DNA from: Candidatus Nomurabacteria bacterium
GTDB taxonomy: Bacteria > Patescibacteriota > Patescibacteriia > UBA1558 > GWA2-36-10
DNA length: 64,000 bases
NCBI GenBank assembly: GCA_020632415.1
Contig: JACKFO010000002.1
Span: 228,605 to 292,604, forward strand
Direction: 5' to 3'
Position numbers and translations under genes: made by a program. The notes under the pieces were generated by a model, which did no database searches, had not been told where the DNA came from, and saw nothing but the letters and a program-made list of their open reading frames with translations. Within the stretch, counting starts at the first letter, position 1; each line of letters starts with the position of its first letter. Of this stretch, positions 37,141-62,931 are shown one piece after another.

Positions 37141-38874
37141 TTATTCGTGTCTAATGCTTAAGACTTCGGCAATTGTTGTGATGCCGATCAAAGCTTTTTG
37201 TAGGCCGTCTTCAAAAATGGTAATCATGCCATTGGCGATTGCTGTTTCTTGAATATCAGCAGAAGAAGAATTTTTAATAATTAATTTTTGAACAGCGGGA
37301 ATGTTTTCTAAAATTTCTAAAACACTGATTCTTCCTGAATAACCAGATTGATGACAAGACTTGCATCCTTTTCCTCGATAAAAAGTTAGCTCTGAAAAAT
37401 TCTGATATTTATCCTCTACCCATTTCAAGGCTTTAAATCTTTGCAATAATTCTTCTAGATTTAATTCTTTTCTTAAACTTTCGATTTCTTCCGGACTCAA
37501 ATGGTAACTTTCGATACATTTTAAACAAATTTTTCTCACCAAACGTTGAGCAATTACCACGTTAAGTGTAGAAGCTACCAAAAAGGGCTCCACTTCCATA
37601 TCCAGTAGTCTTGGTGGAGCTCCAGCGGCATTATTGGTGTGCAAAGTAGATAAGACCAAATGTCCGGTTAATCCAGCACGCACGGCAATTTGAGCGGTTT
37701 TATTATCCCTGATTTCCCCGATCATAATCACATCAGGATCTTGTCTTAATAAGGCTCTTAAGCCATTAGCAAAGTCGTAGCCAGCAACTGGATTGACTTG
37801 AGTTTGATTGATTCGATGTACTCCGTATTCTATCGGGTCTTCGATGGTGCAGATGTTTACTTCTTCGGTATTTAAAGTATTCAAAACCGAGTACAAAGTT
37901 GTAGTTTTTCCCGAACCAGTTGGCCCAACAACCAAAATCATCCCAAATGGTTTTTTGATCTGCTGAGTCATGATTTCAATATTTTTTTCAGAAAAACCTA
38001 GGCTTTCTAGACTAAAGTTTTGTGCTTCATCGGTCATCAAACGCAAGACCATTTTTTCTCCATAAAAAGCTGGAATTACTGAAACTCTGACTGATTCTTC
38101 TTGTCCTTCCAAAGAAAAAGAAAAACGGCCATCTTGAGGAACTCGATGTTCGTCTATTTTTAAGTTTGCTAAAATTTTTATTCTCGCGACAATTGCATCA
38201 TGAACCTCAGAAGGAAGTTCTACTTTGTCATGTAATTCTCCATCAATTCTAAAACGAACAACTACGGCGTCAGGCAAAGCCTCGATGTGAATATCAGAAG
38301 CTTGATCAAACAAAGCGTATTCTAAAATAGCATCAACAATTTGGATGATCGGTAAATCTAATTGACTTGGCGTTCCTTGGACTTCTTTAAATTTTTTGTT
38401 GATTATTTCGTGTAATTCTTCATTGATGTTTTTTTGATAAAGTCGAGAAGCAAAATAAAAGTTTTTTTGACTAGTTAAATAAGGAATTATTTCTTTTTTA
38501 AGTTGCTCTTTAACAAAAGTTAAATTTTCTTGATTTAAAGGATTGACAAAGGCCACTTTAATTTTATTTTCTTCTACAGCAAAAGGAATAGCTTGAGATT
38601 TATTAGCGGCGTCTTCACTAAATAAGTTAATTATTTCTTGCTCTAGTTTAATTTTCCTTAAATTAATATAAGGTATTTTTAAAAAATCACTAATTATTTC
38701 ATACAAAAATTGCTCATTAAAAAATCCTCTTTCAATCAAAACTTCTTCCACTCCTCGACGTCGACGAGAGGCATTTTTTTGGGCATTTTCCCAATCAGTT
38801 TCAGTAATTACTTTTTGGTTTAAAAGCAGCTCTTTTATTTTTTCGATTGCAATTGGTAAATTTGAAGAAGCCAT
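37141..38874 (-). CDS. pilB: Type IV pilus assembly ATPase PilB/GspE
   Basis: 577 aa; N-terminal T2SE_Nter-like region; Walker A GPTGSGKTT; GspE motifs; C-terminal Cys tetrad CLKC...CKSC. Confidence 0.85.
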   Translation of the reverse strand: MASSNLPIAIEKIKELLLNQKVITETDWENAQKNASRRRRGVEEVLIERGFFNEQFLYEIISDFLKIPYINLRKIKLEQEIINLFSEDAANKSQAIPFAVEENKIKVAFVNPLNQENLTFVKEQLKKEIIPYLTSQKNFYFASRLYQKNINEELHEIINKKFKEVQGTPSQLDLPIIQIVDAILEYALFDQASDIHIEALPDAVVVRFRIDGELHDKVELPSEVHDAIVARIKILANLKIDEHRVPQDGRFSFSLEGQEESVRVSVIPAFYGEKMVLRLMTDEAQNFSLESLGFSEKNIEIMTQQIKKPFGMILVVGPTGSGKTTTLYSVLNTLNTEEVNICTIEDPIEYGVHRINQTQVNPVAGYDFANGLRALLRQDPDVIMIGEIRDNKTAQIAVRAGLTGHLVLSTLHTNNAAGAPPRLLDMEVEPFLVASTLNVVIAQRLVRKICLKCIESYHLSPEEIESLRKELNLEELLQRFKALKWVEDKYQNFSELTFYRGKGCKSCHQSGYSGRISVLEILENIPAVQKLIIKNSSSADIQETAIANGMITIFEDGLQKALIGITTIAEVLSIRHE

Positions 38875-38953: not shown

Positions 38954-39439
38954 TTATTCAAGTTCATTCATTAACTCTATTTTTTGCTCTTTTACTTTTT
39001 GCCTTTGATCAAAAATGAAGCTCGCTTTTAGCTTTTTGTTGTCTAAAAAAAGCGGTAGCCAGTATTGATCATCATCCCACATTTGCTGATAAGGGATGTC
39101 TTGTAAGTCAAACCACTGCGGTTTCATTTCTTCTGTTTCAACTAACTCTCCAGACCAAGCTATTACTTTAAAAACATGAATAACCAAAGTTTTAATTAAG
39201 CTGGTATCGGGAAAATTAAAATGAATAATTGCTCTTTTTTCTAATTTCTCAGCTTTCAAGCCACTTTCTTCGTTTAATTCTCTGCCTGCTGCTTGCTCGA
39301 TTGTTTCCTCTGGCTCAAGCTTTCCACCAAAGCCATTGTAAAAACCTTGACCAAAGCCTCTTTTTTTAAAAGCAAGTAGTATTTTATCATCTTTAATCAA
39401 AAAAGCTAAAGTACGAAAATCCTCTCTCTTAGGCTCCAT
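38954..39439 (-). CDS. NUDIX hydrolase
   Basis: Nudix box GGKLEPEETIEQAAGRELNEESGL; start placed at MEPKRED (ORF-track start 39484 lies inside secA); still 11-nt overlap with secA stop. Confidence 0.7.
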   Translation of the reverse strand: MEPKREDFRTLAFLIKDDKILLAFKKRGFGQGFYNGFGGKLEPEETIEQAAGRELNEESGLKAEKLEKRAIIHFNFPDTSLIKTLVIHVFKVIAWSGELVETEEMKPQWFDLQDIPYQQMWDDDQYWLPLFLDNKKLKASFIFDQRQKVKEQKIELMNELE

Positions 39440-42182
39440 GGCATTTTTTATATTTTTTACCACTGCCGCAAGGACAAAGATCATTACGCCCCACCTTTTC
39501 TCCTTCTTCGTTTTTTGGTTTAGAAGCTAAGATTTGAGAATTTTGTTCACGTTCCTCTACTTGTTTTTGAAATGGAGAAAATCCGGCTTTTTGTTCGCTA
39601 AAATTTCTTTGAGCTTGTTGGGCTGGGTTGCTAGCTAATTTTTTGGCAACGCCAACTTTAAAAATCGAATAGACTATTTGTTTACGAATTGAGGCCAATA
39701 GATTATTAAACAAAGTAAAAGCTTCTCGTTTATATTCAACCAAAGGATCTCTTTGCCCATAGCCCTGTAGACCAATTCCTGTTCTTAATTTGTCCATGGC
39801 TGTCAAATGTTCAACCCAAAGAGTGTCAATGCTTCGTAAAACAATTCCTTTTTCGATTAATTGCATTGGTTTAAAACCACTTTCCGGCATTTCAATCGAC
39901 TGATTGATATTTTCAGTTTGAGCTAAATATTTTTCTTTAGCCAAAACAATAATATGTTGGATTAGTTCTGAACGAGTTTCATGAGAACTATCTTTTTTGA
40001 GTTTATCTAATAATTCCTTAATTTTTTCAATTTCAGTATTGTCTAAAGGAAAAATAGATTTTATAGTTTCGATAATTTCTTTGGGATCAAAATCTCCAAG
40101 TTCAGATTTTGCTAAAGTATGAAAAGAAACCACTTCTTCTATTTCTTTGTTAATTTGTTCTAAAACAAAATCTTGAGAACTACTTTCTTTTGTACTTTGA
40201 GCATTTTCAAATAACTTCAAAAAGTTTTGACGCATCTTATAAACAACTTGACGATGTTTGTTGATAATATCATCGTATTCGACCAAGTGTTTTCTGATGT
40301 CAAAATTATGACCCTCTACTTTTCTTTGGGCAGATTCAATTGAACGAGAAATTATTTTATTTTCAATCGCCGTTTCTTCATCAAGCCCTAAAGTATTCAT
40401 CACCGACTTGATTCTCTCCGAACCAAAAATACGCATCAAATCATCGTCTAAAGAAATGAAGAATTGTGAAGATCCGACGTCTCCTTGACGTCCGGCTCGA
40501 CCTCTGAGCTGATTATCAATACGACGAGATTCATGTCTTTCACTACCCAAAACATGTAAACCACCCAAAGACTTTACTTCTTCATGTTTAGCTTTATCAA
40601 ATGGTACACCGCCCAAAATAATATCCACACCACGACCAGCCATGTTGGTTGCAACAGTAATTGCTGATTTTTTACCGGCTTGAGCTAAAATTTCCGCTTC
40701 TTTGGCGTGATTTTTAGCATTTAATAAATTAAAAGGTAAACCTTCTTTTTCTAAAAATTGAGCTAACAATTCATTTTTTTCAATTGAAGCAGTACCAATC
40801 AAAACCGGCTGACCAATCTGGTGACGATAAGCTACTTCTTTGGCAATGGCCTTGAATTTGCCGCGTTCAGATTTAAAAATTTGATCTTTCAAATCTTGAC
40901 GAGAAAATGGTTTGTTAGTTGGAATGACTGTGACATCTAAACTGTAAATCTGAGCCATTTCTTCGGCCTCGGTAGCCGCTGTTCCGGTCATACCAGAAAG
41001 CTTTTCATACATTCTGAAATAATTTTGAAAAGTAATTGTGGCCAAAGTCATACTTTCTCTTTGTACTTGTACACCTTCTTTAGCTTCAATTGCTTGATGT
41101 AAACCTTCGGAATATCTGCGACCCTCCATCATTCTTCCGGTAAATTCATCGATAATCACAATTTCTCCATCACGGACAATATAGTCCTTGTCTTTGTGAT
41201 ACATTGCTTTAGCTCGAAGAGCTTGCTCTAGATGATGAATTGTTACTAAGCCGTGAGTTTCATAAATATTATCTACGCCTAATAATTTTTCTACTTTACG
41301 CACACCATCTTCAGTCAATGTTGCAGTACGCATTTTTTCATCAATATTGTAGTCAGTGTTTTCGACTAATTGGTTTACTAATTGAGAAAACTGTTGATAC
41401 TGTGAGGCTGATTCTTCGGCTGGTGCAGAAATAATCAAGGGAGTTCTTGCTTCATCAATCAAAATGCTATCCACCTCATCAACGATGGCAAAAGTTAGAT
41501 CGCGTTGAACCTGATCTTTTTTATCTTGCGCCATATTATCACGCAAATAGTCAAAACCAAATTCATTGTTAGTTCCGTAAGTAATGTCCGCCTGATAAGC
41601 TTCACTACGACTTACTGGTTTTAGATAGTCCATGACCACTTTGACTGCTTGATCTCTCACTTGGTCATCGTCTTCGGAAATATGATTTGAGTCATAAATA
41701 AAAGAAGTATTATGTTGAATAATTCCAATACTCAAACCCAAAAAATCATAAATTTGCCCCATCCAAGTCGCGTCACGTTTGGCCAAATAATCATTAACCG
41801 TTACCACGTGGACACCTTTGCCGCTTAAAGCGTTTAAGTAAATCGCCAAAGTTGAAGTTAAGGTTTTACCTTCACCGGTTTTCATTTCGGCAATTTGGCC
41901 CTGATGCAAAACAATTCCTCCTAGTAACTGCACGTCATAATGATTTTGATTTAAAGTTCTTTGCGCGGCAAGTTTAACCAAAGCAAAAGCAGGAACCAAT
42001 AAATCATTTAGATCAGTTCCGTTTTGTGCTTGCTGTTTTAATTCTAAGGATTTATTTTTTAGTTCCTGATCAGAAAGCTTTTCCCATTCAGCTTCTTGTT
42101 TTTTTATTGCTTCTATTTGAGGCTTTAAACTATCTAAGAAACGTTGATTGGCATCTCCGAATATTTTTTGTAACCAAGACAT
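39429..42182 (-). CDS. secA: Preprotein translocase subunit SecA
   Basis: 917 aa; DEAD-like motor motifs; C-terminal Zn finger CPCGSGKKYKKCHG. Confidence 0.95.
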   Translation of the reverse strand: MSWLQKIFGDANQRFLDSLKPQIEAIKKQEAEWEKLSDQELKNKSLELKQQAQNGTDLNDLLVPAFALVKLAAQRTLNQNHYDVQLLGGIVLHQGQIAEMKTGEGKTLTSTLAIYLNALSGKGVHVVTVNDYLAKRDATWMGQIYDFLGLSIGIIQHNTSFIYDSNHISEDDDQVRDQAVKVVMDYLKPVSRSEAYQADITYGTNNEFGFDYLRDNMAQDKKDQVQRDLTFAIVDEVDSILIDEARTPLIISAPAEESASQYQQFSQLVNQLVENTDYNIDEKMRTATLTEDGVRKVEKLLGVDNIYETHGLVTIHHLEQALRAKAMYHKDKDYIVRDGEIVIIDEFTGRMMEGRRYSEGLHQAIEAKEGVQVQRESMTLATITFQNYFRMYEKLSGMTGTAATEAEEMAQIYSLDVTVIPTNKPFSRQDLKDQIFKSERGKFKAIAKEVAYRHQIGQPVLIGTASIEKNELLAQFLEKEGLPFNLLNAKNHAKEAEILAQAGKKSAITVATNMAGRGVDIILGGVPFDKAKHEEVKSLGGLHVLGSERHESRRIDNQLRGRAGRQGDVGSSQFFISLDDDLMRIFGSERIKSVMNTLGLDEETAIENKIISRSIESAQRKVEGHNFDIRKHLVEYDDIINKHRQVVYKMRQNFLKLFENAQSTKESSSQDFVLEQINKEIEEVVSFHTLAKSELGDFDPKEIIETIKSIFPLDNTEIEKIKELLDKLKKDSSHETRSELIQHIIVLAKEKYLAQTENINQSIEMPESGFKPMQLIEKGIVLRSIDTLWVEHLTAMDKLRTGIGLQGYGQRDPLVEYKREAFTLFNNLLASIRKQIVYSIFKVGVAKKLASNPAQQAQRNFSEQKAGFSPFQKQVEEREQNSQILASKPKNEEGEKVGRNDLCPCGSGKKYKKCHGA

Positions 42183-49029: not shown

Positions 49030-50778
49030 TTAAAATTTTATTACTTCTCCTGGTTTTAAAGTTTTTTCTTGACTGTTGTTTTGAGCACTAGTATTTACTG
49101 GTGGAATTTTATTTAAGTTGGGATTCATTTTTAAAGCTTCTGACAAAGAAATAAAACCATCTTCTTTGTCTTCAATCTCTTCTTTTTTGTCTGCATTTTC
49201 AGAAACAATTTTAATATTTTTTGGTGAAGGTATCTTTCCTTGTTTGGATAAATTTAAACATTCTTTACAATAAATTGGTTTGTTCGGATCTGGATCAAAG
49301 TTGATTTCCGTCTCTTTGCCACAAAAAGAACAAATCACGTCTTTTTTAAAACCTTTATTTTTAGATTTCGATCTTTTGTTATCTTTATTCTCTTTTGATT
49401 TATTTGTGGTTTCTGCAGTCTTTTCTTTTGGTTTTGAATTTAAAGTAGAGTTAGCATTTGTTTTTGCTTTAGCTTTTACTTCTTCATCAATTTCTGACTT
49501 ATTTTCACTCCAACGAGTAATTTTTTCTTCAATTAATTCCCTTGGTTTAGCATAACGCTCTCGTGAAACAGAAATTACCTTACTTCTCACCTCAGGATTG
49601 CTATAAGAAACATCTATTGGTGGCAAAGTTTTCGCAGAAAAAGCCTCAGAGGCTACGCCATCGATCATTAGCTTCAAATAAACTTCATATTTAGTCAAAT
49701 TGACGAGATCAGTTTGCGTAAAATGTGGAAAAAATTCTTTTTCTAAAAATTCAGCATCAGTAGCGCCTACCCGAAAAGAAACTAGAGTCCCGACATTACC
49801 AAAAACCGCAGCTTGCACAGCTTCTTCCACTTGTTCAATGTATTGGTGGGCTAAAATTAAATTTAAACGATATTTTCTAGCTTCTGACAAAATGCCAGCA
49901 AAAGATTCAGTAGCAAAATTTTGAAACTCATCGACATAAAGATAAAAATCTTTACGTTCATTTTCAGGAATATTTACACGACTCATTGCCGCTAGTTGCA
50001 ATTTGGTAATCATCATTGCTCCTAACAAAGCTGAATTGTCCTCGCCAACTCTACCTTTGGCTAAATTTAAAAGTAAAATCTTTTGACCATCCATAATTTC
50101 TCGCATCGCAAAAGAAGATTTTACTTGACCCAAAATATTTCGAACTAAAGCAGAAGATAAAAATCTGCCAACCTTATTTTGAATCGGGGCAATTGCTTCA
50201 CTTTGAAAACGATCAGGATATTTAGAATATTCATCCACCCAAAATGATCTAACTACTGGGTCAGTGACTTTTTCTAAAACTCGATTACGAAAGGATTTGT
50301 CTACCAAAATTCTCATGATCCCCAACAAAGTTGAACCAGGATATTCAAGCAAAGCCGAAATCGCATGATGCAAAACATACTCTAAACGAGGTCCCCAGGA
50401 ATCAGCCCAAATTTTCTTGAAAACACCGATCAAACCAGAAACCACCAAATGTCTTTCAGCTTCATTGACGTTTTCCAAAACATTGAAAGCAATCGGAAAA
50501 TCCAAATCAGAAGGATTAAAATAAACAACGTCATTGATTCGAGATGCTGGAATAAAATCAATCACCTTTTCTACCAAATCACCATGAGGATCAATCACAC
50601 AAACACCATGACCGGCTTGAATATCCTGAATAATCATGTTCTCTAGAGCCGTTGATTTGCCCATGCCAGTTTTTCCAATAAAATACATATGACGACGTCG
50701 ATCGTCAGTTTTGATTCCAAATTTAACTTTGGAATTACGGAAATTAGTTTGAGCAAAAAAATTAATATCTTGACTCAT
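49030..50778 (-). CDS. FtsK-HerA superfamily P-loop ATPase, TraD/VirD4(T4CP)/HerA-like, with C-terminal Lys-rich linker and zinc ribbon
   Basis: 582 aa; Walker A GKTGMGKS, DPHGD motif, Walker B YLYVDEFQNF, ARKYRLNLILAHQ; C-terminal CSFCGKE...CKEC; paralogous to the C-terminal half of 60490-62931. Confidence 0.6.
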   Translation of the reverse strand: MSQDINFFAQTNFRNSKVKFGIKTDDRRRHMYFIGKTGMGKSTALENMIIQDIQAGHGVCVIDPHGDLVEKVIDFIPASRINDVVYFNPSDLDFPIAFNVLENVNEAERHLVVSGLIGVFKKIWADSWGPRLEYVLHHAISALLEYPGSTLLGIMRILVDKSFRNRVLEKVTDPVVRSFWVDEYSKYPDRFQSEAIAPIQNKVGRFLSSALVRNILGQVKSSFAMREIMDGQKILLLNLAKGRVGEDNSALLGAMMITKLQLAAMSRVNIPENERKDFYLYVDEFQNFATESFAGILSEARKYRLNLILAHQYIEQVEEAVQAAVFGNVGTLVSFRVGATDAEFLEKEFFPHFTQTDLVNLTKYEVYLKLMIDGVASEAFSAKTLPPIDVSYSNPEVRSKVISVSRERYAKPRELIEEKITRWSENKSEIDEEVKAKAKTNANSTLNSKPKEKTAETTNKSKENKDNKRSKSKNKGFKKDVICSFCGKETEINFDPDPNKPIYCKECLNLSKQGKIPSPKNIKIVSENADKKEEIEDKEDGFISLSEALKMNPNLNKIPPVNTSAQNNSQEKTLKPGEVIKF

Positions 50779-50783
50779 ATTTT

Positions 50784-52295
50784 TTAACCAGTAGGCAAAT
50801 TAGTTGGCGGCTCACCTTTTTTATCAGCCAACTGCTTTGTAATTTGTTTTTGTTTAAATTCTTCTTTATTTTTAGCAAATTTTTCTTCAAAATAATCATT
50901 ATCTAAATTGACATTAAAATCGGGCTTTTTATTTAGCTGAATTTTTAAATCCTGACTAACCCGATCGTTATCATTGCCACTCATAGAAATTGGCAAACCA
51001 GAAGGAGCTTCGCCTTTTTTGGTATCAGTACGCTTTAGAAGCGGTGTTCTGACTTCAATTCCTGGGAAGTGCCAAAGACTCGCAAGCTCTTCTGTATTTA
51101 AAATAAAGGTTTTATACCCAGCTACTGTACTTCTGCCTTTATAAGCTTTGATAATTTTGGCTTTTCGTTTTTTATTGCGATATTTAGTAAACCAATAATT
51201 TGTCGAAGTCTTAGTTTTTGCGTCAGGCTTAAAACTATTTAAATCAAGGGTAGAAAATTGTTTAATTGCTCCAAAAACCGAAGAAACTACTCGATTAGGA
51301 TTATAGTCTTCATTTGGCGACAAATAAACTAAACGAATTTTACAGTCAAAGCCTATTTTACCAGCTTTATTTTCAATTGCTTCTAAGGTTCCCTTTTCTC
51401 CTGGAGTCAAGTGAAGCATCAAGCTTGGCATGTCGTCTTTTTTCTTTTCCGCTTCCTTCCAAAGTGGAAAAATAAATTCGCCAATATTATCCATGGCATT
51501 GGTAATAAAATCAACAGACTGCGTAGCTTTATTTCCACCGCTGTCAGGCATTTTTTTACCAGCAATTTTATAAGCTGCTTCCTCGCTTTTTTTGATCCAA
51601 TCCACTCCGGTTGGGCGGACAATAATTTGAAGCCAAACTTGTTCACCAATGTGAATTTTACTCATCGTCTCCAGCAAAGCTGCTAGCGGATCTTTGTATT
51701 CTCCAGAAACCTTATCCTCAAAAGCTGGGTAAGTACGAATCGGCAAAGCATCTTCTTTAACCAAGACAACTTCTGTGCCCCAAATATTATAATCTTCGTC
51801 AGGATATTCTTCTGGCGCCCAATTAACATAATCATCAACTTCAGTAATTTCAGCATCCGGATACTGAGAATAAATCGAACTTTCGATCACATCGCGGTAT
51901 TGCACTGGAGTACGAATCAAAAACTGCACATAGCCATCGATACTAACGATTTCAAAAGAAAAAGCTAATTGAAAAATACCTTTAACATATTGGTCAACTT
52001 TATTAATATTAGCATGCGCTCCAGAAACGGTAGAAAATAAACCCTCAACTGCCTTTGGTGTTTGTTCATGTTCTTTAGGGATATCAACGGCCAACAAAAC
52101 AAATTTATTTGTGTCAAACCATTTATTCTGTTTTTCCATGATCCAAACCTCATAACCTTGAGTGATCAAGATCCAAGCCAAAGGAATCCAACCGCCATGA
52201 GCGATAATATACCACAAAGCAAAAATAGGCCCCTTGTCAGCAGCAATAAATAATGGTGATAAATCAATCACTAAATTTAAAAATTCTATCTGCAT
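50784..52295 (-). CDS. Membrane-anchored partner protein; homologous to the N-terminal half of the 813-aa fused ATPase
   Basis: 503 aa; two N-terminal TM helices; segments align with residues about 60-400 of the 60490-62931 protein. Confidence 0.5.
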   Translation of the reverse strand: MQIEFLNLVIDLSPLFIAADKGPIFALWYIIAHGGWIPLAWILITQGYEVWIMEKQNKWFDTNKFVLLAVDIPKEHEQTPKAVEGLFSTVSGAHANINKVDQYVKGIFQLAFSFEIVSIDGYVQFLIRTPVQYRDVIESSIYSQYPDAEITEVDDYVNWAPEEYPDEDYNIWGTEVVLVKEDALPIRTYPAFEDKVSGEYKDPLAALLETMSKIHIGEQVWLQIIVRPTGVDWIKKSEEAAYKIAGKKMPDSGGNKATQSVDFITNAMDNIGEFIFPLWKEAEKKKDDMPSLMLHLTPGEKGTLEAIENKAGKIGFDCKIRLVYLSPNEDYNPNRVVSSVFGAIKQFSTLDLNSFKPDAKTKTSTNYWFTKYRNKKRKAKIIKAYKGRSTVAGYKTFILNTEELASLWHFPGIEVRTPLLKRTDTKKGEAPSGLPISMSGNDNDRVSQDLKIQLNKKPDFNVNLDNDYFEEKFAKNKEEFKQKQITKQLADKKGEPPTNLPTG

Positions 52296-52398: not shown

Positions 52399-53502
52399 TT
52401 AAGCATTTTTGAGGAAATATCTACCTTTACTATCTCTTTCAAAGCGGTCTTTATTCATCAGAGCCAAAGTAATCGTCGTTTCTTTAATCATTCTTTTCTT
52501 TAAAACTTCAGCGATAATTTCTTTTTTACTCAATGGTCTATCTTGTTCGATTAAAATTTCAGCAATTACATCTGCAACGACGCCTGGTTTATAACCCCAT
52601 TCTTTTAAGGCATAAATACCACGACCAACCAAGACATATTTATCATCCAAAATTAATTCATTATGAATAGTTGCAGGATAAGCCTTTCTTTTATCAAAGG
52701 ATTTTGAGTTAATAATTTCAGCGATCTCTGTAAAATGTAATGGTTTATTTTCTTTTTTCAAGACAATGTAGATTTTGTCATTCATTCTCTTCGGGGTAAT
52801 ACTTGGCCATTCAGTTAAACCCCATTCTTGATAAGGATTGTCTTTAATTTTCTTGGTAATATCCAAAAAGTTGACTACCATTTTTTCAGTCAGATCATCG
52901 TTAGAGGTAAAAAAATCAGCTTCTGAAACATTTTTAACTAATTTTTCAAGCTCTAATGCTTCTTTGTATTCTAAAATTAATTGGCGTAAATTTTCAATAA
53001 CCTCTTCAAAAAAATCAAGAGAAGCTTCTGGGGTTTTCCAAAAACTATGATTATGTTTGTTTTCTTTGACAAAATGAAAACGATGATTTAAAAGTTGACT
53101 CAAGACAAAATTAATCGCAGCTTTGTTTTCATCAGTTACACCAGGAACCATCAATAATTCTTTAATCAAACTTTCTTCAGACATCATGCCGCCATGCTCA
53201 GCTAAAATAGCGTTGGCAATATCTTCAATTTGTTTGATAAAATTTTCATCAAAACTTTTACTGATTTTTTTCAAAGCACTATTTTCAATTTGACGCACTC
53301 TTTCACGAGTGATTTTGTATTGACCACCGATGTCTTCTAGGGTTTTTTTATCAGCTCCAGCCAAACCATGTCGCATTTTCAAAATCTCTTGCTCACGTTC
53401 GGAAAGCAGGCCTAAAATACGCTCGACAGTAGCGCTGGGATTAAATTCGGCTAAATGAGATAACTGTTGTGCAGTCATTACTTGATCTAAAATTGAACTC
53501 AT
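52399..53502 (-). CDS. Protein with N-terminal sigma-70 region 4 (HTH) domain and about 280-aa uncharacterised C-terminal domain
   Basis: 367 aa; residues about 30-80 LSEREQEILKMRHGLAGADKKTLEDIGGQYKITRERVRQIENSALKKI match region 4.2; no regions 2 or 3 detectable. Confidence 0.55.
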   Translation of the reverse strand: MSSILDQVMTAQQLSHLAEFNPSATVERILGLLSEREQEILKMRHGLAGADKKTLEDIGGQYKITRERVRQIENSALKKISKSFDENFIKQIEDIANAILAEHGGMMSEESLIKELLMVPGVTDENKAAINFVLSQLLNHRFHFVKENKHNHSFWKTPEASLDFFEEVIENLRQLILEYKEALELEKLVKNVSEADFFTSNDDLTEKMVVNFLDITKKIKDNPYQEWGLTEWPSITPKRMNDKIYIVLKKENKPLHFTEIAEIINSKSFDKRKAYPATIHNELILDDKYVLVGRGIYALKEWGYKPGVVADVIAEILIEQDRPLSKKEIIAEVLKKRMIKETTITLALMNKDRFERDSKGRYFLKNA

Positions 53503-53615: not shown

Positions 53616-54509
53616 TTATGAATTTTTGTTCCACCAAACCAAAAGTGGTGAGGCAATGAAAATCGAAGAATAAGTACCAACAATCACGCCTAAAATCAAA
53701 GCCAAAACGAAATATTGAATGCTCTGACCACCAAAAATATAGATTGCTAGCAAGACCAAAAGCGTAGTTAAGGAAGTATTAATCGAGCGAATAATAGTTT
53801 GATTAACACTAATATTTACAATTTCTGTAAAGCTTTGGTTATGAATTTTAAATAGATTTTCTCGAACTCGATCAAAAGTAACGATCGTATCATGAACAGA
53901 AAAGCCCAAAATCGTCAACAAAGCAGTTACAAATAAAGTGTCAATTTCCACTCCTAAGAAATAACCCAGGATGGCAAACACGCCGGTAACGATTAAAATG
54001 TCATGCACTAAAGCAGCGATTGCAGCCAAACCATATTTCCAAGAAGCAACTGGTTTAGAGACCTTTCTAAAGGCATAAGCAATATAAGCAACAATGAAAA
54101 TCAAAACAATAATAATTGCCTCAATGGCTTTACTCTTTAATTCTTGACCAATAGTTGGACCAACAGATTCAAATCTTTGTTCTTCCACTAAACCAGAGTC
54201 GGGAGCGCTAGATTTTAGCTGATTAAGAACGACTTGATGTTTATCTTCATCGACATTTTCAAAACGTAAGATAAAAATGTTATCACCACTTGGTTGAACT
54301 TTGACATTGTTTAAATCTATCTGCGCCAAACTCTCCTCTATTTGAGTAATTTCTGGACGATTGTTTTCATAAGATATCTCTAACAAACTACCACCGGTAA
54401 AATCAATTCCTAACTTCAAACCCCAAATTACTAGAGCAAGAATACTGATGGCCATTAGGAATCCAGAAATTGAAAACCAAATTTTTTTTGAATCAATAAT
54501 ATTATACAT
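53616..54509 (-). CDS. secF: Protein-export membrane protein SecF
   Basis: 297 aa; SecF N-terminus KKIWFSISGFLMAISI..GIDFTGG; six TM segments. Confidence 0.85.
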   Translation of the reverse strand: MYNIIDSKKIWFSISGFLMAISILALVIWGLKLGIDFTGGSLLEISYENNRPEITQIEESLAQIDLNNVKVQPSGDNIFILRFENVDEDKHQVVLNQLKSSAPDSGLVEEQRFESVGPTIGQELKSKAIEAIIIVLIFIVAYIAYAFRKVSKPVASWKYGLAAIAALVHDILIVTGVFAILGYFLGVEIDTLFVTALLTILGFSVHDTIVTFDRVRENLFKIHNQSFTEIVNISVNQTIIRSINTSLTTLLVLLAIYIFGGQSIQYFVLALILGVIVGTYSSIFIASPLLVWWNKNS

Positions 54510-54513
54510 AATT

Positions 54514-56181
54514 TTATTCTCCTTTTTTCTTTAAACCAAACAACCACAATTTATCTTCTATTTTCTTATTAACCATAATTCTTAAAAATGTTCTGGTTAC
54601 GGTAATTGCTGAGAACATGGAAATCAAAATACCAATCGCCAAGGTAATTGCAAAACCTTTGACAATAGAAGTTCCAAACCAGGCTAAAATCAAACAAGTA
54701 ATGATCGAAGAAATATTTGAGTCACGAATTGAGCTCCAGGCTCTAACAAAGCCATTTTCAATAGCTGAAGTCAAACTTCTGCCATCTCTTAATTCTTCTT
54801 TGGTTCTTTCAAAAATCAAAACATTAGCGTCCACTGCCATACCAACCGAAAGAATAAAACCGGCAACACCAGCCAAAGTCATTGTCACTGGAATAATTTC
54901 AAATAAAGCTAAAGTAAGCAATGAATAAACTCCTAAAGCCAAGACAGCAACTAAGCCTGGTAAACGATAATAAAATAGCATGAATAAAGCAGCGGCAATC
55001 AAACCAATAATACCGGCCATCAAGCTTTTTTGTACTGAACTAGCGCCCAAAGAAGCGCCTACGGTCTGCTGACTAACTAAAGTAATTGGCACTGGTAAAG
55101 CACCGGAATTCAAACGACGAACCATATCTTTGGCCTCTGAAGCATTGAAATTTCCAGAAATTACTGCATTTCCATCTTTAATCGCCTCTTGAACAGTTGG
55201 AGCAGAAACTAAAAATCCATCCAAAAAGATAGCGACCGGCTTTCCGACATTAGCGCCGGTAATTTCAGCAAACATATCTTTACCATCAGAATCAAACTCT
55301 AAACCAACTAAGGGTTGATTTGTATTTTGATCAAACTCTAAATAAGCTCTTTTTAGATTTTTACCGCCAAGTTCAGTGTTTTCCCAAATGGTATTGCCCA
55401 AATCAGCGTTTTCATTTTTGATCAAAATATGAGCAGCATGCACTTCTACTTCGCCACTTTCATTTACTCTCTCTTCAATTTTTTTGATAATATGATAACC
55501 AAATTGAGAGGTAACTAATTCTTTGGAGATTTCCCCACTCTTTAGTTGATCAAAAATAGCTTGATCAAATTCAGGAACAAACTCACCACGAGTAACCCAT
55601 GGTAAATCACCACCGTTTTGAGCTGAACCCAAGTCTTCGCTGTATTCTTGAGCAAGTTGAGCAAAGTCAGCGCCAGCTAAAGCCTTGGCTAAAATTTCTT
55701 CAGCTAATGCCCGAGGCTCATTTACAGCCTCCTCATCAGTATTAACTTCAACTATTGGCGCAACACCCTGGGTTTTAAACTCTAACAAAGGAGTCTCACC
55801 GATCATCTTAATTGCCTCATTGACATCTTTGACACCGGCAAGCTCAACAATAATGCGATAATTATCGCCGCTATAATTAGTTTGAATCGTTGGTTCAGAA
55901 ACACCATAAGCGTTTACTCGACGCTCAATCACATCTCTGACGCCTTCGACTGATTCTTTCTTATCAGAATCAGCAAAAGCAGTTACATCGGCCTCATAAA
56001 CTAAATGAGTTCCGCCTTGTAAATCTAAGCCCAAATGAACTTTAAATCTACTAAACCAACCAAAGCCTTGTGGCCAAACTACCAAAGCAGTAAAAATTGT
56101 TAAAAGCACAATTCCTAAAAAAGTAGCACGTACTTGATTTTGACTCACCTGTTTTACACGAAAAATAGTCTTTTTTTGCAT
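54514..56181 (-). CDS. secD: Protein-export membrane protein SecD with inserted parvulin-type PPIase domain in the periplasmic P1 region
   Basis: 555 aa; SecD signature LGLDLQGGTHLVY; residues about 150-240 form a complete PpiC/parvulin domain; C-terminal six TM segments. Confidence 0.8.
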   Translation of the reverse strand: MQKKTIFRVKQVSQNQVRATFLGIVLLTIFTALVVWPQGFGWFSRFKVHLGLDLQGGTHLVYEADVTAFADSDKKESVEGVRDVIERRVNAYGVSEPTIQTNYSGDNYRIIVELAGVKDVNEAIKMIGETPLLEFKTQGVAPIVEVNTDEEAVNEPRALAEEILAKALAGADFAQLAQEYSEDLGSAQNGGDLPWVTRGEFVPEFDQAIFDQLKSGEISKELVTSQFGYHIIKKIEERVNESGEVEVHAAHILIKNENADLGNTIWENTELGGKNLKRAYLEFDQNTNQPLVGLEFDSDGKDMFAEITGANVGKPVAIFLDGFLVSAPTVQEAIKDGNAVISGNFNASEAKDMVRRLNSGALPVPITLVSQQTVGASLGASSVQKSLMAGIIGLIAAALFMLFYYRLPGLVAVLALGVYSLLTLALFEIIPVTMTLAGVAGFILSVGMAVDANVLIFERTKEELRDGRSLTSAIENGFVRAWSSIRDSNISSIITCLILAWFGTSIVKGFAITLAIGILISMFSAITVTRTFLRIMVNKKIEDKLWLFGLKKKGE

Positions 56182-57125: not shown

Positions 57126-57698
57126 TTATTCAAAATAAATTGGAATTTCTAAAGCATCGTCATGCTCCGGTAATCCTGAAGGATTATCTTTTTGAAAAAT
57201 CAAAGCTCCGTTGTTTTTGTAATCTGGTTTGCTAAATTCTAAGTTTACAGTAAAAGGCACAAAATCTTCGGTCATCCAATCCCCCTTAGCCTGAGCAATT
57301 CCTTGAGCAATGATCAGACCGTCCCAATTAACTAAACTTACCGGAAAAGAGCTTTCAAAAAACCAAGTTCCTCTGGCTTGACCAGAAATAGTAAGCGGAC
57401 TTGTAATATAATCATCAGCATGAACAGAGTCTAAACGAATTAAATTAAATTTTTCTTGCTCTGCTTTATTTAAAATTTGATCCTTTAAAATTTCCACAAA
57501 AGTTTCATTGTTTGCTCGACACTGACGTGGATGAGATTCCATTATCGGAAAACCCGCTGCTTCACATTCAATAAAATTAGCAATCTTTTTTTCTTCTGTT
57601 TCAGATTTTTTTAACAATAAACCACCAACAATCAATAATAAAACTGCTATTTCTAAAGCGTAATAAATATATTTTTGATTCCCTGATCTAAACATCAT
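57126..57698 (-). CDS. Hypothetical membrane-anchored/secreted protein
   Basis: 190 aa; N-terminal TM anchor; followed by minus-strand terminator hairpin at about 57075-57100. Confidence 0.45.
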   Translation of the reverse strand: MMFRSGNQKYIYYALEIAVLLLIVGGLLLKKSETEEKKIANFIECEAAGFPIMESHPRQCRANNETFVEILKDQILNKAEQEKFNLIRLDSVHADDYITSPLTISGQARGTWFFESSFPVSLVNWDGLIIAQGIAQAKGDWMTEDFVPFTVNLEFSKPDYKNNGALIFQKDNPSGLPEHDDALEIPIYFE

Positions 57699-60489: not shown

Positions 60490-62931
60490 TTAGACTTTTA
60501 AACGCCTTACCACTTCTTCTTCGATTAACTTCCTATCTCGTCCATATTTTAAGGCTGACAATTCTTTGATTGCCTGGGCTAATTCAAAATGACCTTTTTC
60601 TGGTTTGATTGGTTGAAAATTAAAAGCTGGAGTGACTGTATTGTCAATCAATAATTTTACATAACAAGTATATTTTGGCATATTGATCAAATCATATTCT
60701 GAGACTACTGGAGCCATTTGTTTGGCAATAATCTCTGAATCTTCTACGCCAATTCGGAAAGAAACCAAAGTTCCAACATTACCAAAAATAGCATCTCTGG
60801 TTCTAGTATCTCCGCTTTTAACTAACTGAGCAATAAACTGATGAGCTAAAATTAAATTTAATTTATATTTTCTGGCTTCTGACAAAATAACCGAAACTGT
60901 ATCAGTAATAAAATTTTGAAACTCATCAATGTATAGATAAAAGTCCTTTCTGTCTTCTTCGGCAGTGTCTACCCGACTCATGGCAGCAAATAATAATTTT
61001 CCAATCACCACCATTCCTAGTAAACTACTATTTGTTTCACCGATCTTACCTTTGGATAGATTCAATAAAACAATTTTATTTGAATCCATCGCCTCTCGGA
61101 AATTAAAAGCACTTTTACTTTGAGCGATAATCGGTCGAATCAAATCATTGGAAATAAACGGAGTTAATTTACTAGTAATATAAGGAACCATGTTAGCTAA
61201 GGCTGCATCGCCGCCAGCTTTTTGCGCCTCTTTTTCCCAAAAATCTTTGACAAAAACATTTTTAACAGTCTCTAATTTTTTCTTTCGATACTCAGCGTCT
61301 GCTAAAATTTTTGGAATTTCTAATAGCGTCGCTCCGCTTTCTTTATCATCCATAACCAGCAACATGGCATTGCGCATGTATTGTTCAAACATCGGACCAC
61401 CGGTAGCTTTTAAGTCGTATAGTTTATCAAAAATTGCAATCATTTCGTTGATCACAAAAGTTTTTTGCTCTTCCGTTTCATATTCCAACATGTTCATTCC
61501 TAATGGTCGTTGGGAATTTGCCGGATCAAACAAAATCACATCTTCTGCTCTTTCTTTTGGAATTTGAGTCAAAATAACCTCTACCAAATCACCATGTGGA
61601 TCAACTACGCAGACTCCCTTGCCAGCTTTAATGTCCTGAATAATTAAACTTTCCTGAAAAACAGATTTTCCGGTTCCAGTCTGACCAATGACATACATAT
61701 GGCGGCGGCGATCCTCTGACTTGATCCTAACTAGGGTCTCTCGACCACGATAAGAGCTTTTGCCGAGTATTAAGCCATCTTGGGGCATATTGCTTGGTGG
61801 TGGGGCCTTAACAGCCTCCAACCAAGCAATGTTTGGAGTTTCGGTGGTCGGTAAAGGCAAATGAATGACCGAAACCATTTCTTCTGAATTCAAAAGAAAA
61901 CTATTTTTATCAATAAATTGTCGGAAAATAAACTGATCAATCAATTTGTCAGATTTTTTAGGAAGCAAAGCTTCGAAGCTATTACCAAATTCATAAATAT
62001 TGTATTGCGCATAACTATTCAAAATATCTTCCAAAACTGCCTCTGATCTTTCTTTGCTATTGCTAGAAACAACCACTCTTAGATTGACATCTAAGGCTGG
62101 TTTAGAGTTTTTATCTTCTAAAAGCTTACTAATTTCCTGTTCTTTAGCAGAACTTTGATGTTTATTTTCTAATGGAAATTGTTGATGATCTTTATTTTTG
62201 TCTGGACTAGCAAAATTAAAAAAACTTCCTAAAAATGAGAAAAACCCAAAAATTGATTTTCCACTACCCGCTTTTGAAACCGCAGTTTGCAAACTCTCAC
62301 CATCTTGCATGTTTCTAACAATTTTCCTTGCTCTGCTATGCCAAGCCTTTGGCGCGGATTTAAAAACATACTGAATGGAAGCTGACTCATGTTCGTTCAG
62401 CTTACTCAAAGCATTGGTAATACTCTCCAAAGGATCATTTTCAAAAACATGGTAAGTTTTGATCGGTAAAGTAGAATCTTTTTTTAATTTCAAAGCACCT
62501 GCTTTAATCACACTGTTAGCTTCAAAAATATTGTAATCAGAAATTTCTTCAAAATAAACTTTTGGATAAACTGATTGAAATTGTTGTAAAAAAAATTCTT
62601 TTAATTTTTTAGGGACGGCCACGTAAAAATAAATAATCCCCTTAAAGGCTACCATTTCTAAAGAAAAAATTCTTTCTTTTTTCAAAGATTTTTCAGATTT
62701 CAAACCAGCTAGAGCAGTAAAAAGATTTTCAATTCGACCCAAAGCGCCATTAATATAATCTTTATTTAATTCATCCTGATCTTTTTTGGTATATCTAGGA
62801 ACTTTGAGCAAAAGCATTTCTAGTTCAGGATTTTTATTAATATTTTTTTTATACCAAAAAAATAAAATTACTAAGGCAATGGCCAGTAATAAAAAAATGC
62901 TGATTAAAATAATAGCTTCTAGCGAAATCAT
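60490..62931 (-). CDS. Fused membrane-anchored FtsK-HerA superfamily ATPase (TraD/VirD4/HerA-like); single-gene equivalent of the 50784-52295 plus 49030-50778 pair
   Basis: 813 aa; N-terminal TM; middle region homologous to the 503-aa protein; C-terminal ATPase with GQTGTGKS, DPHGD, YLYIDEFQNF, ARKYKLNLILAHQ. Confidence 0.6.
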   Translation of the reverse strand: MISLEAIILISIFLLLAIALVILFFWYKKNINKNPELEMLLLKVPRYTKKDQDELNKDYINGALGRIENLFTALAGLKSEKSLKKERIFSLEMVAFKGIIYFYVAVPKKLKEFFLQQFQSVYPKVYFEEISDYNIFEANSVIKAGALKLKKDSTLPIKTYHVFENDPLESITNALSKLNEHESASIQYVFKSAPKAWHSRARKIVRNMQDGESLQTAVSKAGSGKSIFGFFSFLGSFFNFASPDKNKDHQQFPLENKHQSSAKEQEISKLLEDKNSKPALDVNLRVVVSSNSKERSEAVLEDILNSYAQYNIYEFGNSFEALLPKKSDKLIDQFIFRQFIDKNSFLLNSEEMVSVIHLPLPTTETPNIAWLEAVKAPPPSNMPQDGLILGKSSYRGRETLVRIKSEDRRRHMYVIGQTGTGKSVFQESLIIQDIKAGKGVCVVDPHGDLVEVILTQIPKERAEDVILFDPANSQRPLGMNMLEYETEEQKTFVINEMIAIFDKLYDLKATGGPMFEQYMRNAMLLVMDDKESGATLLEIPKILADAEYRKKKLETVKNVFVKDFWEKEAQKAGGDAALANMVPYITSKLTPFISNDLIRPIIAQSKSAFNFREAMDSNKIVLLNLSKGKIGETNSSLLGMVVIGKLLFAAMSRVDTAEEDRKDFYLYIDEFQNFITDTVSVILSEARKYKLNLILAHQFIAQLVKSGDTRTRDAIFGNVGTLVSFRIGVEDSEIIAKQMAPVVSEYDLINMPKYTCYVKLLIDNTVTPAFNFQPIKPEKGHFELAQAIKELSALKYGRDRKLIEEEVVRRLKV

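What the first reader, a model, noticed from the sequence alone, without database searches (positions are those of the whole stretch)
54514..56181. SecD carrying an inserted parvulin-type PPIase domain in its periplasmic head
Between the SecD P1 beginning (LGLDLQGGTHLVY) and the rest of the periplasmic domain, a complete PpiC/parvulin rotamase domain is inserted (..ADFAQLAQEYSEDLGSAQNGGDLPWVTRGEFVPEFDQAIFDQLKSGEISKELVTSQFGYHIIKK..). In model bacteria the periplasmic chaperone/PPIase PpiD is a separate protein that docks on SecYEG-SecDF. Here the foldase appears built into the translocon accessory subunit. This would be a compact solution for a reduced genome, and a possible natural experiment for SecDF-PpiD cooperation.
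Basis: seen in the sequence. Interest (0 to 1): 0.55.

Follow-up and report, generated by a model that had tools for sequence, protein, structure and literature searches.

The report
SecD with built-in, circularly permuted parvulin
In this candidate-phyla-radiation bacterium, and hundreds of its relatives, the protein-export subunit SecD carries a prolyl-isomerase (parvulin) domain with its strands in rearranged order, tethered outside the membrane where exported proteins emerge, so a folding helper that is normally a separate protein appears to be part of the export machine.

Summary
The 555-aa ORF at 54514..56181 (minus strand) is SecD (TIGR01129, E 3e-120), with a separate secF downstream. 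Between the P1 base (SecD_1st, aa 79-137) and the P1 head (aa 266-364) lies a parvulin domain (PF13616, E 7e-26).

1. The domain is a circular permutant. The canonical N-terminal beta1 strand, with its catalytic His, is missing before helix alpha1 and reappears after beta4 as EVHAAHILIK (aa 245-255). The tetrad D183/S225/H230/H251 is intact in 210 of 250 single-unit family members. AF2 folds the domain confidently (pLDDT 90.9) on two disordered tethers.
2. The architecture is common in Patescibacteria. All 120 closest homologues have it. There are 380 confirmed matches in GTDB species genomes, and 80 of the 80 examined lie inside secD. Longer variants have two parvulin units, and some are fused SecDF.

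No paper describing the fusion was found, and databases call these proteins plain SecD.

Most likely role: a translocon-tethered foldase or holdase, working like PrsA or PpiD in cis. This is inferred, not shown. Whether a stand-alone prsA/ppiD is absent from the genome could not be tested.

The parts
54514..56181 (-). secD ORF, 555 aa, with the parvulin insert
   Evidence: ORF list; TIGR01129 E 3.2e-120; Foldseek of the full AF2 model to SecDF 5yhf/5xap/3aqp, E down to 6.8e-26
56077..56142 (-). TM1 (aa 14-35), which places the following P1 domain outside the cytoplasmic membrane
   Evidence: AF2 helix 14-35; alignment to T. thermophilus SecDF residues 11 onward
55768..56049 (-). P1 base, N-terminal part (aa 45-138): GG motif plus SecD_1st, ending in the base strand LEFKTQ
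   Evidence: Pfam PF07549 45-67 and PF21760 79-137; AF2 strand 133-138; aligns to Tt SecDF 11-117
55720..55767 (-). N-side tether (aa 139-154): variable, hydrophilic, predicted disordered, with no beta1 motif
   Evidence: pLDDT <50 for 142-153; variable columns in the family alignment
55465..55719 (-). Parvulin core alpha1-alpha2-alpha3-beta2-alpha4-beta3-beta4 (aa 155-239), with D183, S225 and H230
55417..55464 (-). Hairpin plus relocated beta1 strand (aa 240-255, ...GEVEVHAAHILIK) carrying the invariant H251
55387..55416 (-). C-side tether (aa 256-265)
   Evidence: pLDDT <50 for 258-263
55090..55386 (-). P1 head subdomain (aa 266-364)
   Evidence: PF22599 268-364, E 1.5e-29; aligns to Tt SecDF from residue 160
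54547..55089 (-). TM2-TM6 RND-type membrane domain (aa 365-545), with the invariant GMAVDAN motif (D451)
   Evidence: PF02355 367-537; invariant G447, M448, A449, D451, A452, N453; aligned to Tt 'GAAVDGNVL'
53616..54509 (-). secF, a separate gene 4 nt downstream (297 aa)
   Evidence: TIGR00966 E 2.3e-89; a separate secF follows in 76 of 80 related GTDB loci

Best explanation
The gene encodes a functional SecD, the proton-driven accessory subunit of the Sec translocon, working with a separately encoded SecF. At the connection between its P1 base and P1 head it carries a circularly permuted parvulin-type peptidyl-prolyl isomerase domain held by two flexible tethers of about 10-16 residues. In this domain the strand that normally opens the fold (beta1, bearing one of the two catalytic histidines) has moved to the C-terminal end. 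There it forms a hairpin with beta4 and rebuilds the usual sheet and the Asp/Ser/His/His active site. Because TM1 precedes P1, the domain lies on the outer face of the cytoplasmic membrane, next to the P1 head that in solved SecDF structures captures emerging polypeptides. The most likely function is a translocon-tethered foldase or holdase that acts on exported proteins as they leave SecYEG, doing in cis what PrsA (monoderms) or PpiD (diderms) do in trans. Shown here: gene identity, insert position, permuted order, residue conservation, confident fold, and wide vertical distribution in Patescibacteria. Inferred: PPIase activity, action on Sec substrates, and any coupling to the P1 head movement.
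Against: No biochemical data exist. Parvulin domains with a good fold can lack PPIase activity (E. coli PpiD, SurA parvulin-1; background knowledge), and PrsA's essential role in B. subtilis is reported not to need its PPIase activity (background knowledge). The insert lacks the chaperone (NC/SurA_N-type) module that carries much of the PrsA/PpiD/SurA function. The placement of the trailing strand in the beta1 slot is inferred from secondary structure, confidence values and sequential structure alignments; model coordinates could not be inspected. AF2 does not define where the domain sits relative to P1 (tethers pLDDT <50, pTM 0.47). Whether the genome lacks a stand-alone PrsA-like protein is unknown.
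Confidence: 0.7

Rival explanations
1. The inserted parvulin is a non-catalytic substrate-docking or holdase module, like the parvulin domains of PpiD or SurA parvulin-1. It increases SecD's grip on emerging chains without isomerising prolines.
Against: In the query's class the full Asp/Ser-Thr/His/His tetrad is retained in 210 of 250 proteins and is invariant among 62 homologues down to 59% identity. That pattern is expected if catalysis is under selection.
Confidence: 0.2
2. The domain acts on SecDF itself. It would be a regulatory or mechanical element at the base/head hinge that gates or biases the P1 head swing, or isomerises a proline in SecD or SecF, rather than serving exported clients.
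For: It is inserted exactly at the base-to-head connection that serves as the hinge in SecDF structures. This site tolerates other inserts, both non-parvulin and very long ones.
Against: The two tethers are disordered and variable in sequence and length. That argues for a loosely attached module rather than a rigid mechanical element. No conserved interface was identified.
Confidence: 0.07
3. The parvulin is not permuted. It is an N-terminally truncated domain followed by a leftover beta1 from a lost second parvulin, and the trailing strand is not part of the fold.
For: The insert aligns with SurA parvulin-1 plus the first strand of parvulin-2. Two-unit SecD variants exist in which the His-bearing strand between the cores most plausibly belongs to the following core.
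Against: A parvulin without beta1 would lack a central strand and one catalytic His. The trailing strand is the most conserved segment outside the core (E246 and H251 invariant). AF2 includes it at high confidence: block mean pLDDT 96 for model residues 91-100 and 85 for 101-110, domain pTM 0.82. A solved structure with the same chain order superposes over 105/113 residues at 2.1 A. There is no N-side candidate strand.
Confidence: 0.03
4. The fusion is an assembly or gene-calling artefact.
For: None found.
Against: It is a single uninterrupted ORF. The identical protein occurs on independent contigs. Hundreds of homologues from independent assemblies have the same architecture.
Confidence: 0

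Closest known systems
SecD / SecDF (T. thermophilus 3AQP, 5YHF; D. radiodurans 5XAN/5XAP)
   Same: TM1, P1 base, P1 head and TM2-6 architecture; GG motif; TM4 'G-x-AVD-x-N' Asp; adjacent secF. TIGR01129 is above cut-off, and Foldseek gives E 7e-26.
   Different: About 133 residues (aa 138-270) replace about 42 residues at the base-to-head connection and contain a whole extra enzyme domain. SecD and SecF are separate polypeptides here.
PrsA (Bacillus and Listeria foldase lipoprotein; 4WO7, 6XD8, 6VJ6, 5HTF)
   Different: No lipobox and no N/C chaperone domain (NCBIfam PrsA models score 54.6-56.0 bits against cut-offs of 343-361). The chain order is permuted. It is anchored by being part of SecD.
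PpiD (E. coli; 2KGJ, 8ZHT PpiD-YfgM)
   Same: A membrane-anchored parvulin-containing factor at the exit of the Sec translocon.
SurA (E. coli 1M5Y), with tandem parvulin domains
   Same: Best sequence match in PDB (E 1.7e-23). The insert aligns continuously with the parvulin-1 core, the linker, and beta1 of parvulin-2. This is the arrangement from which a permutant can arise by duplication and truncation.
   Different: In SurA each parvulin has its own N-terminal beta1. SurA is soluble and periplasmic, with an N/C chaperone core.
Bacteroides fragilis periplasmic PPIase, the BfUbb target (8HM3/8HM4)
   Different: It is a 427-residue soluble chaperone-type protein, not part of SecD, with only 34-37% identity. 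I could not read its sequence or its paper, so whether the authors describe a permutation is unknown.

Membership tests
SecD (TIGR01129 / Pfam SecD_1st + SecDF_P1_head + SecD_SecF_C) | Family HMM above the curated cut-off | tested here: met
   TIGR01129 scores 401.9 bits against a cut-off of 244.4. PF21760, PF22599 and PF02355 are all above their gathering scores.
SecD (TIGR01129 / Pfam SecD_1st + SecDF_P1_head + SecD_SecF_C) | Topology: TM1, a large extracytoplasmic P1 (base plus head), then five further TM helices; fold like solved SecDF | tested here: met
   AF2 secondary structure; Foldseek to 5yhf, 5xap and 3aqp with E 7e-26 to 5e-23.
SecD (TIGR01129 / Pfam SecD_1st + SecDF_P1_head + SecD_SecF_C) | Conserved TM4 Asp of the proton pathway, and a partner SecF | tested here: met
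   D451 in GMAVDAN is invariant and aligns with Tt 'GAAVDGN'. secF lies directly downstream (TIGR00966 E 2e-89).
SecD (TIGR01129 / Pfam SecD_1st + SecDF_P1_head + SecD_SecF_C) | Proton-motive-force-dependent stimulation of translocation | not testable with these tools
   Needs biochemistry.
Parvulin PPIase (Pfam PF00639 / PF13616) | Family HMM above the gathering score | tested here: met
   PF13616 scores 91.5 bits (cut-off 22.5) and PF00639 scores 77.5 bits (cut-off 21.7).
Parvulin PPIase (Pfam PF00639 / PF13616) | Parvulin three-dimensional fold | tested here: met
   [not shown]
Parvulin PPIase (Pfam PF00639 / PF13616) | Canonical chain order beta1-alpha1-alpha2-alpha3-beta2-alpha4-beta3-beta4 | tested here: not met
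   beta1 follows beta4. It is therefore a circular permutant of the family, not a canonical member.
Parvulin PPIase (Pfam PF00639 / PF13616) | Catalytic tetrad (Pin1 C113/H59/H157/T152 equivalents; Asp replaces Cys in PrsA-type enzymes) | tested here: met
The residues are invariant, and 210 of 250 proteins have the tetrad. There is a one-residue loop ambiguity for D183 relative to Pin1.
Parvulin PPIase (Pfam PF00639 / PF13616) | Measured prolyl cis/trans isomerase activity | not testable with these tools
   Needs an enzyme assay.
PrsA foldase | Lipoprotein with N- and C-terminal chaperone segments flanking the parvulin; equivalog HMM above cut-off | tested here: not met
   NF002827 scores 55.9 against 343 and NF002846 scores 56.0 against 361, with only the parvulin region matching. 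The flanks are SecD P1, not a PrsA NC domain.
PpiD | Own N-terminal TM anchor plus a SurA_N-like chaperone module plus a parvulin | tested here: not met
   [not shown]

The most novel reading that the evidence does not exclude
The permuted parvulin sits on the hinge of the proton-driven P1 head. The SecDF power stroke might therefore be mechanically coupled to client handling: each F-to-I swing would present the emerging chain to the isomerase groove and then pull it off. That would make this an energy-coupled extracytoplasmic foldase, in a compartment that has no ATP. A corollary is that insert-bearing Patescibacteria have dispensed with stand-alone PrsA-type foldases, and that the single-unit and two-unit forms record how a circular permutation arose by duplication and deletion inside a host protein.
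Probability: 0.15. Interest if true: 0.8.

Novelty: new variant of a known kind. Interest (0 to 1): 0.55.

Why it matters
How exported proteins are handed from the Sec channel to folding factors is still debated. The debate includes how PpiD/YfgM, SecDF and YidC share the translocon exit, and why PrsA is essential. A natural covalent fusion that is conserved across a large bacterial radiation is strong comparative evidence that a parvulin foldase works at SecDF's P1 head. It also gives a compact, genetically defined object (one polypeptide, about 110 residues of insert) for structural and biochemical study.

The domain is also a clear natural circular permutation of the parvulin fold with its active site preserved. 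Single-unit and two-unit relatives may be evolutionary intermediates. I found no paper describing either the fusion or the permutation.

For annotation, these proteins are labelled only 'SecD', and annotation-based 'PrsA present' calls in CPR genomes may need checking against this fusion.

Tried and rejected
1. Artefact or chimeric ORF: rejected.

2. A second parvulin elsewhere in the window: none found in a six-frame search with the insert HMM. Pfam scans of 20 neighbouring ORFs showed no other foldase.

3. Literature searches found no description of a SecD-parvulin fusion or a permuted parvulin: 'SecD'+'parvulin'+'fusion', 'circular permutation'+'parvulin', 'Candidate Phyla Radiation'+'SecD'+'peptidyl-prolyl', 'Patescibacteria'+'PrsA'+'Sec', and 'parvulin'+'permut'.

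4. I tried to read how 8HM3/8HM4 is described. The structure paper is not in the library. I could not bring the chain's alignment into the printed top five.

6. Source names for the variant representatives were mostly missing.

7. MAG titles reading 'Gammaproteobacteria/Bdellovibrionales' were rejected as evidence for occurrence outside CPR. Those loci share secD-secF-(sigma70_r4/HARE-HTH) synteny and 45-80% identity with the window.

8. For the two-unit variants I could not decide between two readings: nested (a canonical unit B inserted into a permuted unit A) and serial-permuted. The His pattern and full-length Pfam matches favour nested. The 8hm3 precedent keeps serial-permuted open.

9. 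The de-permutation test gave only a modest gain (6-7 bits), so on its own it is weak.

Full report
**1. Observation.** The window holds a 555-aa ORF at 54514..56181 on the minus strand. A 297-aa ORF follows 4 nt downstream at 53616..54509. Pfam places the domains in this order: Sec_GG (45-67), SecD_1st (79-137), Rotamase_3/Rotamase (148-237; E 7.2e-26 and 1.6e-21), SecDF_P1_head (268-364) and SecD_SecF_C (367-537). NCBIfam calls the first ORF SecD (TIGR01129, 401.9 bits, cut-off 244.4) and the second SecF (TIGR00966, E 2.3e-89).

**2. Where the insert sits.** Against T. thermophilus SecDF (3aqp), query 21-137 aligns with Tt 11-117, ending in the base strand LEFK/LEFR. Query 271-548 aligns with Tt 160-438, starting at LGGKNL/LTGADL. 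About 133 residues (138-270) therefore replace about 42 residues at the base-to-head connection. The full-length AF2 model (mean pLDDT 77.8) shows:
- TM1 at 14-35;
- the base strand at 133-138;
- a confident helical/strand module at 155-255 (pLDDT about 80-88);
- the first head strand at 266-272;
- long TM helices from 379 onward.

The segments 142-153 and 258-263 have pLDDT below 50. The full model matches SecDF crystal structures (5yhf, 5xap, 3aqp; E 7e-26 to 5e-23). The TM4 motif GMAVDAN, with D451, is invariant in the family. This looks like a working SecD, and the extra domain lies outside the cytoplasmic membrane on two flexible tethers.

**3. The parvulin is circularly permuted.** The Pfam matches begin at profile position 28/116 (PF13616) and 10/97 (PF00639), so the N-terminal beta1 strand with the first catalytic His is missing before helix alpha1. 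A typical beta1 sequence, EVHAAHILIK, lies after beta4 (FGYHIIKK) and a short hairpin. The evidence is as follows.
- (a) In a 62-sequence family alignment, E246 and H251 in this strand are invariant, as are H230 and D183. The segment before alpha1 (138-155) is variable and gappy.
- (b) A profile of the insert aligns contiguously across the junction of doubled Par10 and doubled Pin1, running from alpha1 of copy 1 into beta1 of copy 2. The corresponding PDB entries are hit.
- (c) Moving the strand in front of the core raises the PF13616 score to 99.3 bits and extends coverage to profile 14-113. The linker and shuffled controls give 92.4 and 93.1 bits with coverage 29-113. This gain is modest.
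- (d) E. coli SurA is a natural tandem parvulin. The insert aligns continuously to SurA 162-274, which is the parvulin-1 core, the linker, and beta1 of parvulin-2 (EVHARHILLKP).
- (e) In the solved canonical PrsA fragment 6xd8, the query's trailing strand matches chain 4-16 (EIKASHILVKDEA) and the query's beta4 matches chain 76-90. The order is reversed.
- (f) The domain alone (aa 150-262) folds with mean pLDDT 90.9 and pTM 0.82, with the trailing strand inside the compact fold.

That the strand occupies the beta1 slot next to beta4 is an inference. A hairpin from beta4 can only pair on the side not taken by beta3, and no other strand is available for that slot. I could not inspect coordinates.

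**4. Active site.** By alignment to Par10 and Pin1, D183 corresponds to Pin1 C113 (Asp in PrsA-type enzymes), S225 to T152, H230 to H157 and H251 to H59. Across all collected sequences, 210 of 250 proteins with one detectable parvulin unit have D-[S/T]-H-H at these four positions. This conservation is what catalysis under selection would produce, but activity itself is not shown.

**5. Distribution.**
- The identical protein is in NCBI as 'protein translocase subunit SecD [Candidatus Nomurabacteria bacterium]' on a contig of 842 kb.
- All 120 best 90%-identity clusters (59-100% identity) have the same single insert. Where named, they come from Patescibacteria (Komeilibacteria, Parcubacteria and others).
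- A scan of GTDB species genomes with two peptide patterns from the insert gave 380 confirmed matches. The best 80 all lie inside secD, 75 of them with the relocated strand detectable and 76 with a separate secF downstream. Named lineages include Komeili-, Kuenen-, Moran-, Uhr- and Kerfeldbacteria.
- MAGs titled Gammaproteobacteria or Bdellovibrionales share the window's synteny and are evidently mislabelled.
- Among the 150 nearest 50%-identity representatives, 142 could be scored. Of these, 76 have no parvulin and a short base-to-head link. Some of those are also Patescibacteria, for example Azambacteria. Another 60 carry at least one parvulin core.
- On a rough neighbour-joining tree of the SecD core with the insert removed, insert presence needs 10 changes, against 38.5 (minimum 31) for shuffled labels. 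This indicates mostly vertical inheritance.

**6. Variants.**
- Longer forms (about 655-830 aa, and about 1015-1119 aa when fused to SecF) have the order: linker, degenerate core A, His-bearing strand, core B, trailing strand, head.
- Core A lacks the beta4 His, and the strand after it nearly always has the His.
- Core B has the beta4 His, and its trailing strand usually lacks one.
- Pfam covers the strand plus core B as a full-length canonical parvulin (for example PF00639 1-97/97 in P0125).
- I favour a nested reading: a canonical active unit B sits between core A and A's relocated strand. A serial-permuted reading is not excluded.
- The query's core and trailing strand align with core B plus its trailing strand.
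- The single form could have arisen from a two-unit form by deletion, or the reverse. Either route is the classical duplication/deletion path to a circular permutant. The order of events is unresolved.

**7. Function.** In solved SecDF structures the P1 head captures the emerging chain and swings about the base/head hinge (background knowledge of Tsukazaki 2011 and Furukawa 2017). The insert hangs from that hinge on flexible tethers, outside the membrane. The best-supported explanation is a translocon-tethered foldase or holdase for exported proteins, working like PrsA or PpiD but in cis.

It is not a member of the PrsA or PpiD families. Only the parvulin region matches PrsA models (about 56 bits against cut-offs above 340), and no chaperone module is present.

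The rivals are a non-catalytic docking module, a regulator of SecDF's own hinge, and a truncated parvulin with a leftover strand. They are weighed in the rival list.

The idea that the fusion replaces a stand-alone foldase in a reduced genome could not be tested. The 64-kb window has no second parvulin and no other foldase among 20 neighbouring ORFs. One CPR ecogenomics paper reports annotation-based PrsA calls in CPR classes without mentioning a fusion (PMC9166423).

**8. Novelty and score.** Both parts are well-known families, and the proteins are already in public databases with Pfam hits for both, labelled simply SecD. I found no paper on the fusion or on a permuted parvulin. A structural precedent for the permuted order exists in PDB (8hm3/8hm4).

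I rate it a new variant of a known kind, with interest about 0.55. It is a conserved natural fusion that makes SecDF-foldase cooperation directly testable, and it offers a clear case of circular permutation with possible intermediates. The function is still inferred, and the underlying biology (a parvulin foldase at the Sec exit) is expected rather than surprising.

Noticed in passing
P0122, P0126, P0127, P0130, P0133, P0137, P0148, P0165 and others (representatives): SecD or SecDF variants carry two parvulin units at the same site (inserts of about 250 aa). Unit A is degenerate, without the beta4 His. Unit B looks catalytic. Other variants have inserts of more than 300 aa (P0155, P0157, P0170, P0172). 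Some are fused SecDF polypeptides of 1015-1119 aa.
   Followed up: partly
[not shown]
   Followed up: partly
P0132 (511 aa), P0144 (633 aa), P0145, P0151, P0164 (667 aa): Some Patescibacteria-type SecDs have inserts of 70-230 aa at the same base/head junction with no parvulin, or only a faint one (P0164: PF00639 E 2e-6, no stretch passing). The junction seems to be an insertion hot spot, and some inserts may be decayed parvulins.
   Followed up: no
L004-L006, L009, L011-L013, L024, L030-L033, L046, L048, L051-L054, L058, L061, L063, L069, L071, L073, L079-L081: ENA 'binchicken'/SRP MAGs titled 'uncultured Gammaproteobacteria' or 'Bdellovibrionales' carry this CPR-type secD-secF-(sigma70_r4/HARE-HTH) locus at 45-80% identity to the window. 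The organism labels are almost certainly wrong.
   Followed up: partly
window 52399-53502 (-): A 367-aa protein with Sigma70_r4 at the N-terminus and a HARE-HTH domain lies directly downstream of secF. A homologue occupies the same position in 41 of 80 related loci, which is conserved synteny of unknown meaning.
   Followed up: partly
window 60490-62931 (-), 49030-50778 (-), 50784-52295 (-): Two VirD4/TrwB-like coupling-protein ATPases (813 and 582 aa) flank the region. The second also has a treble-clef zinc finger and sits next to a 503-aa protein with no Pfam hit here (listed as DUF8128). They may be parts of the Patescibacteria type IV secretion or conjugation-like system.
   Followed up: no
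window 39429-42182 (-) and 37141-38874 (-): SecA (917 aa) and a PilB/T2SSE-type ATPase (577 aa) lie about 12-17 kb from secDF, so several export and pilus components sit within the same 20 kb.
   Followed up: no
window 54617-54928 (+): A 103-aa ORF lies antisense inside secD. It is most likely a spurious reading frame.
   Followed up: no
window 57126-57698 (-): A 190-aa protein with an N-terminal TM segment and a Gmad2 immunoglobulin-like domain lies two genes upstream of secD. It is conserved in only 4 of 80 related loci.
   Followed up: no
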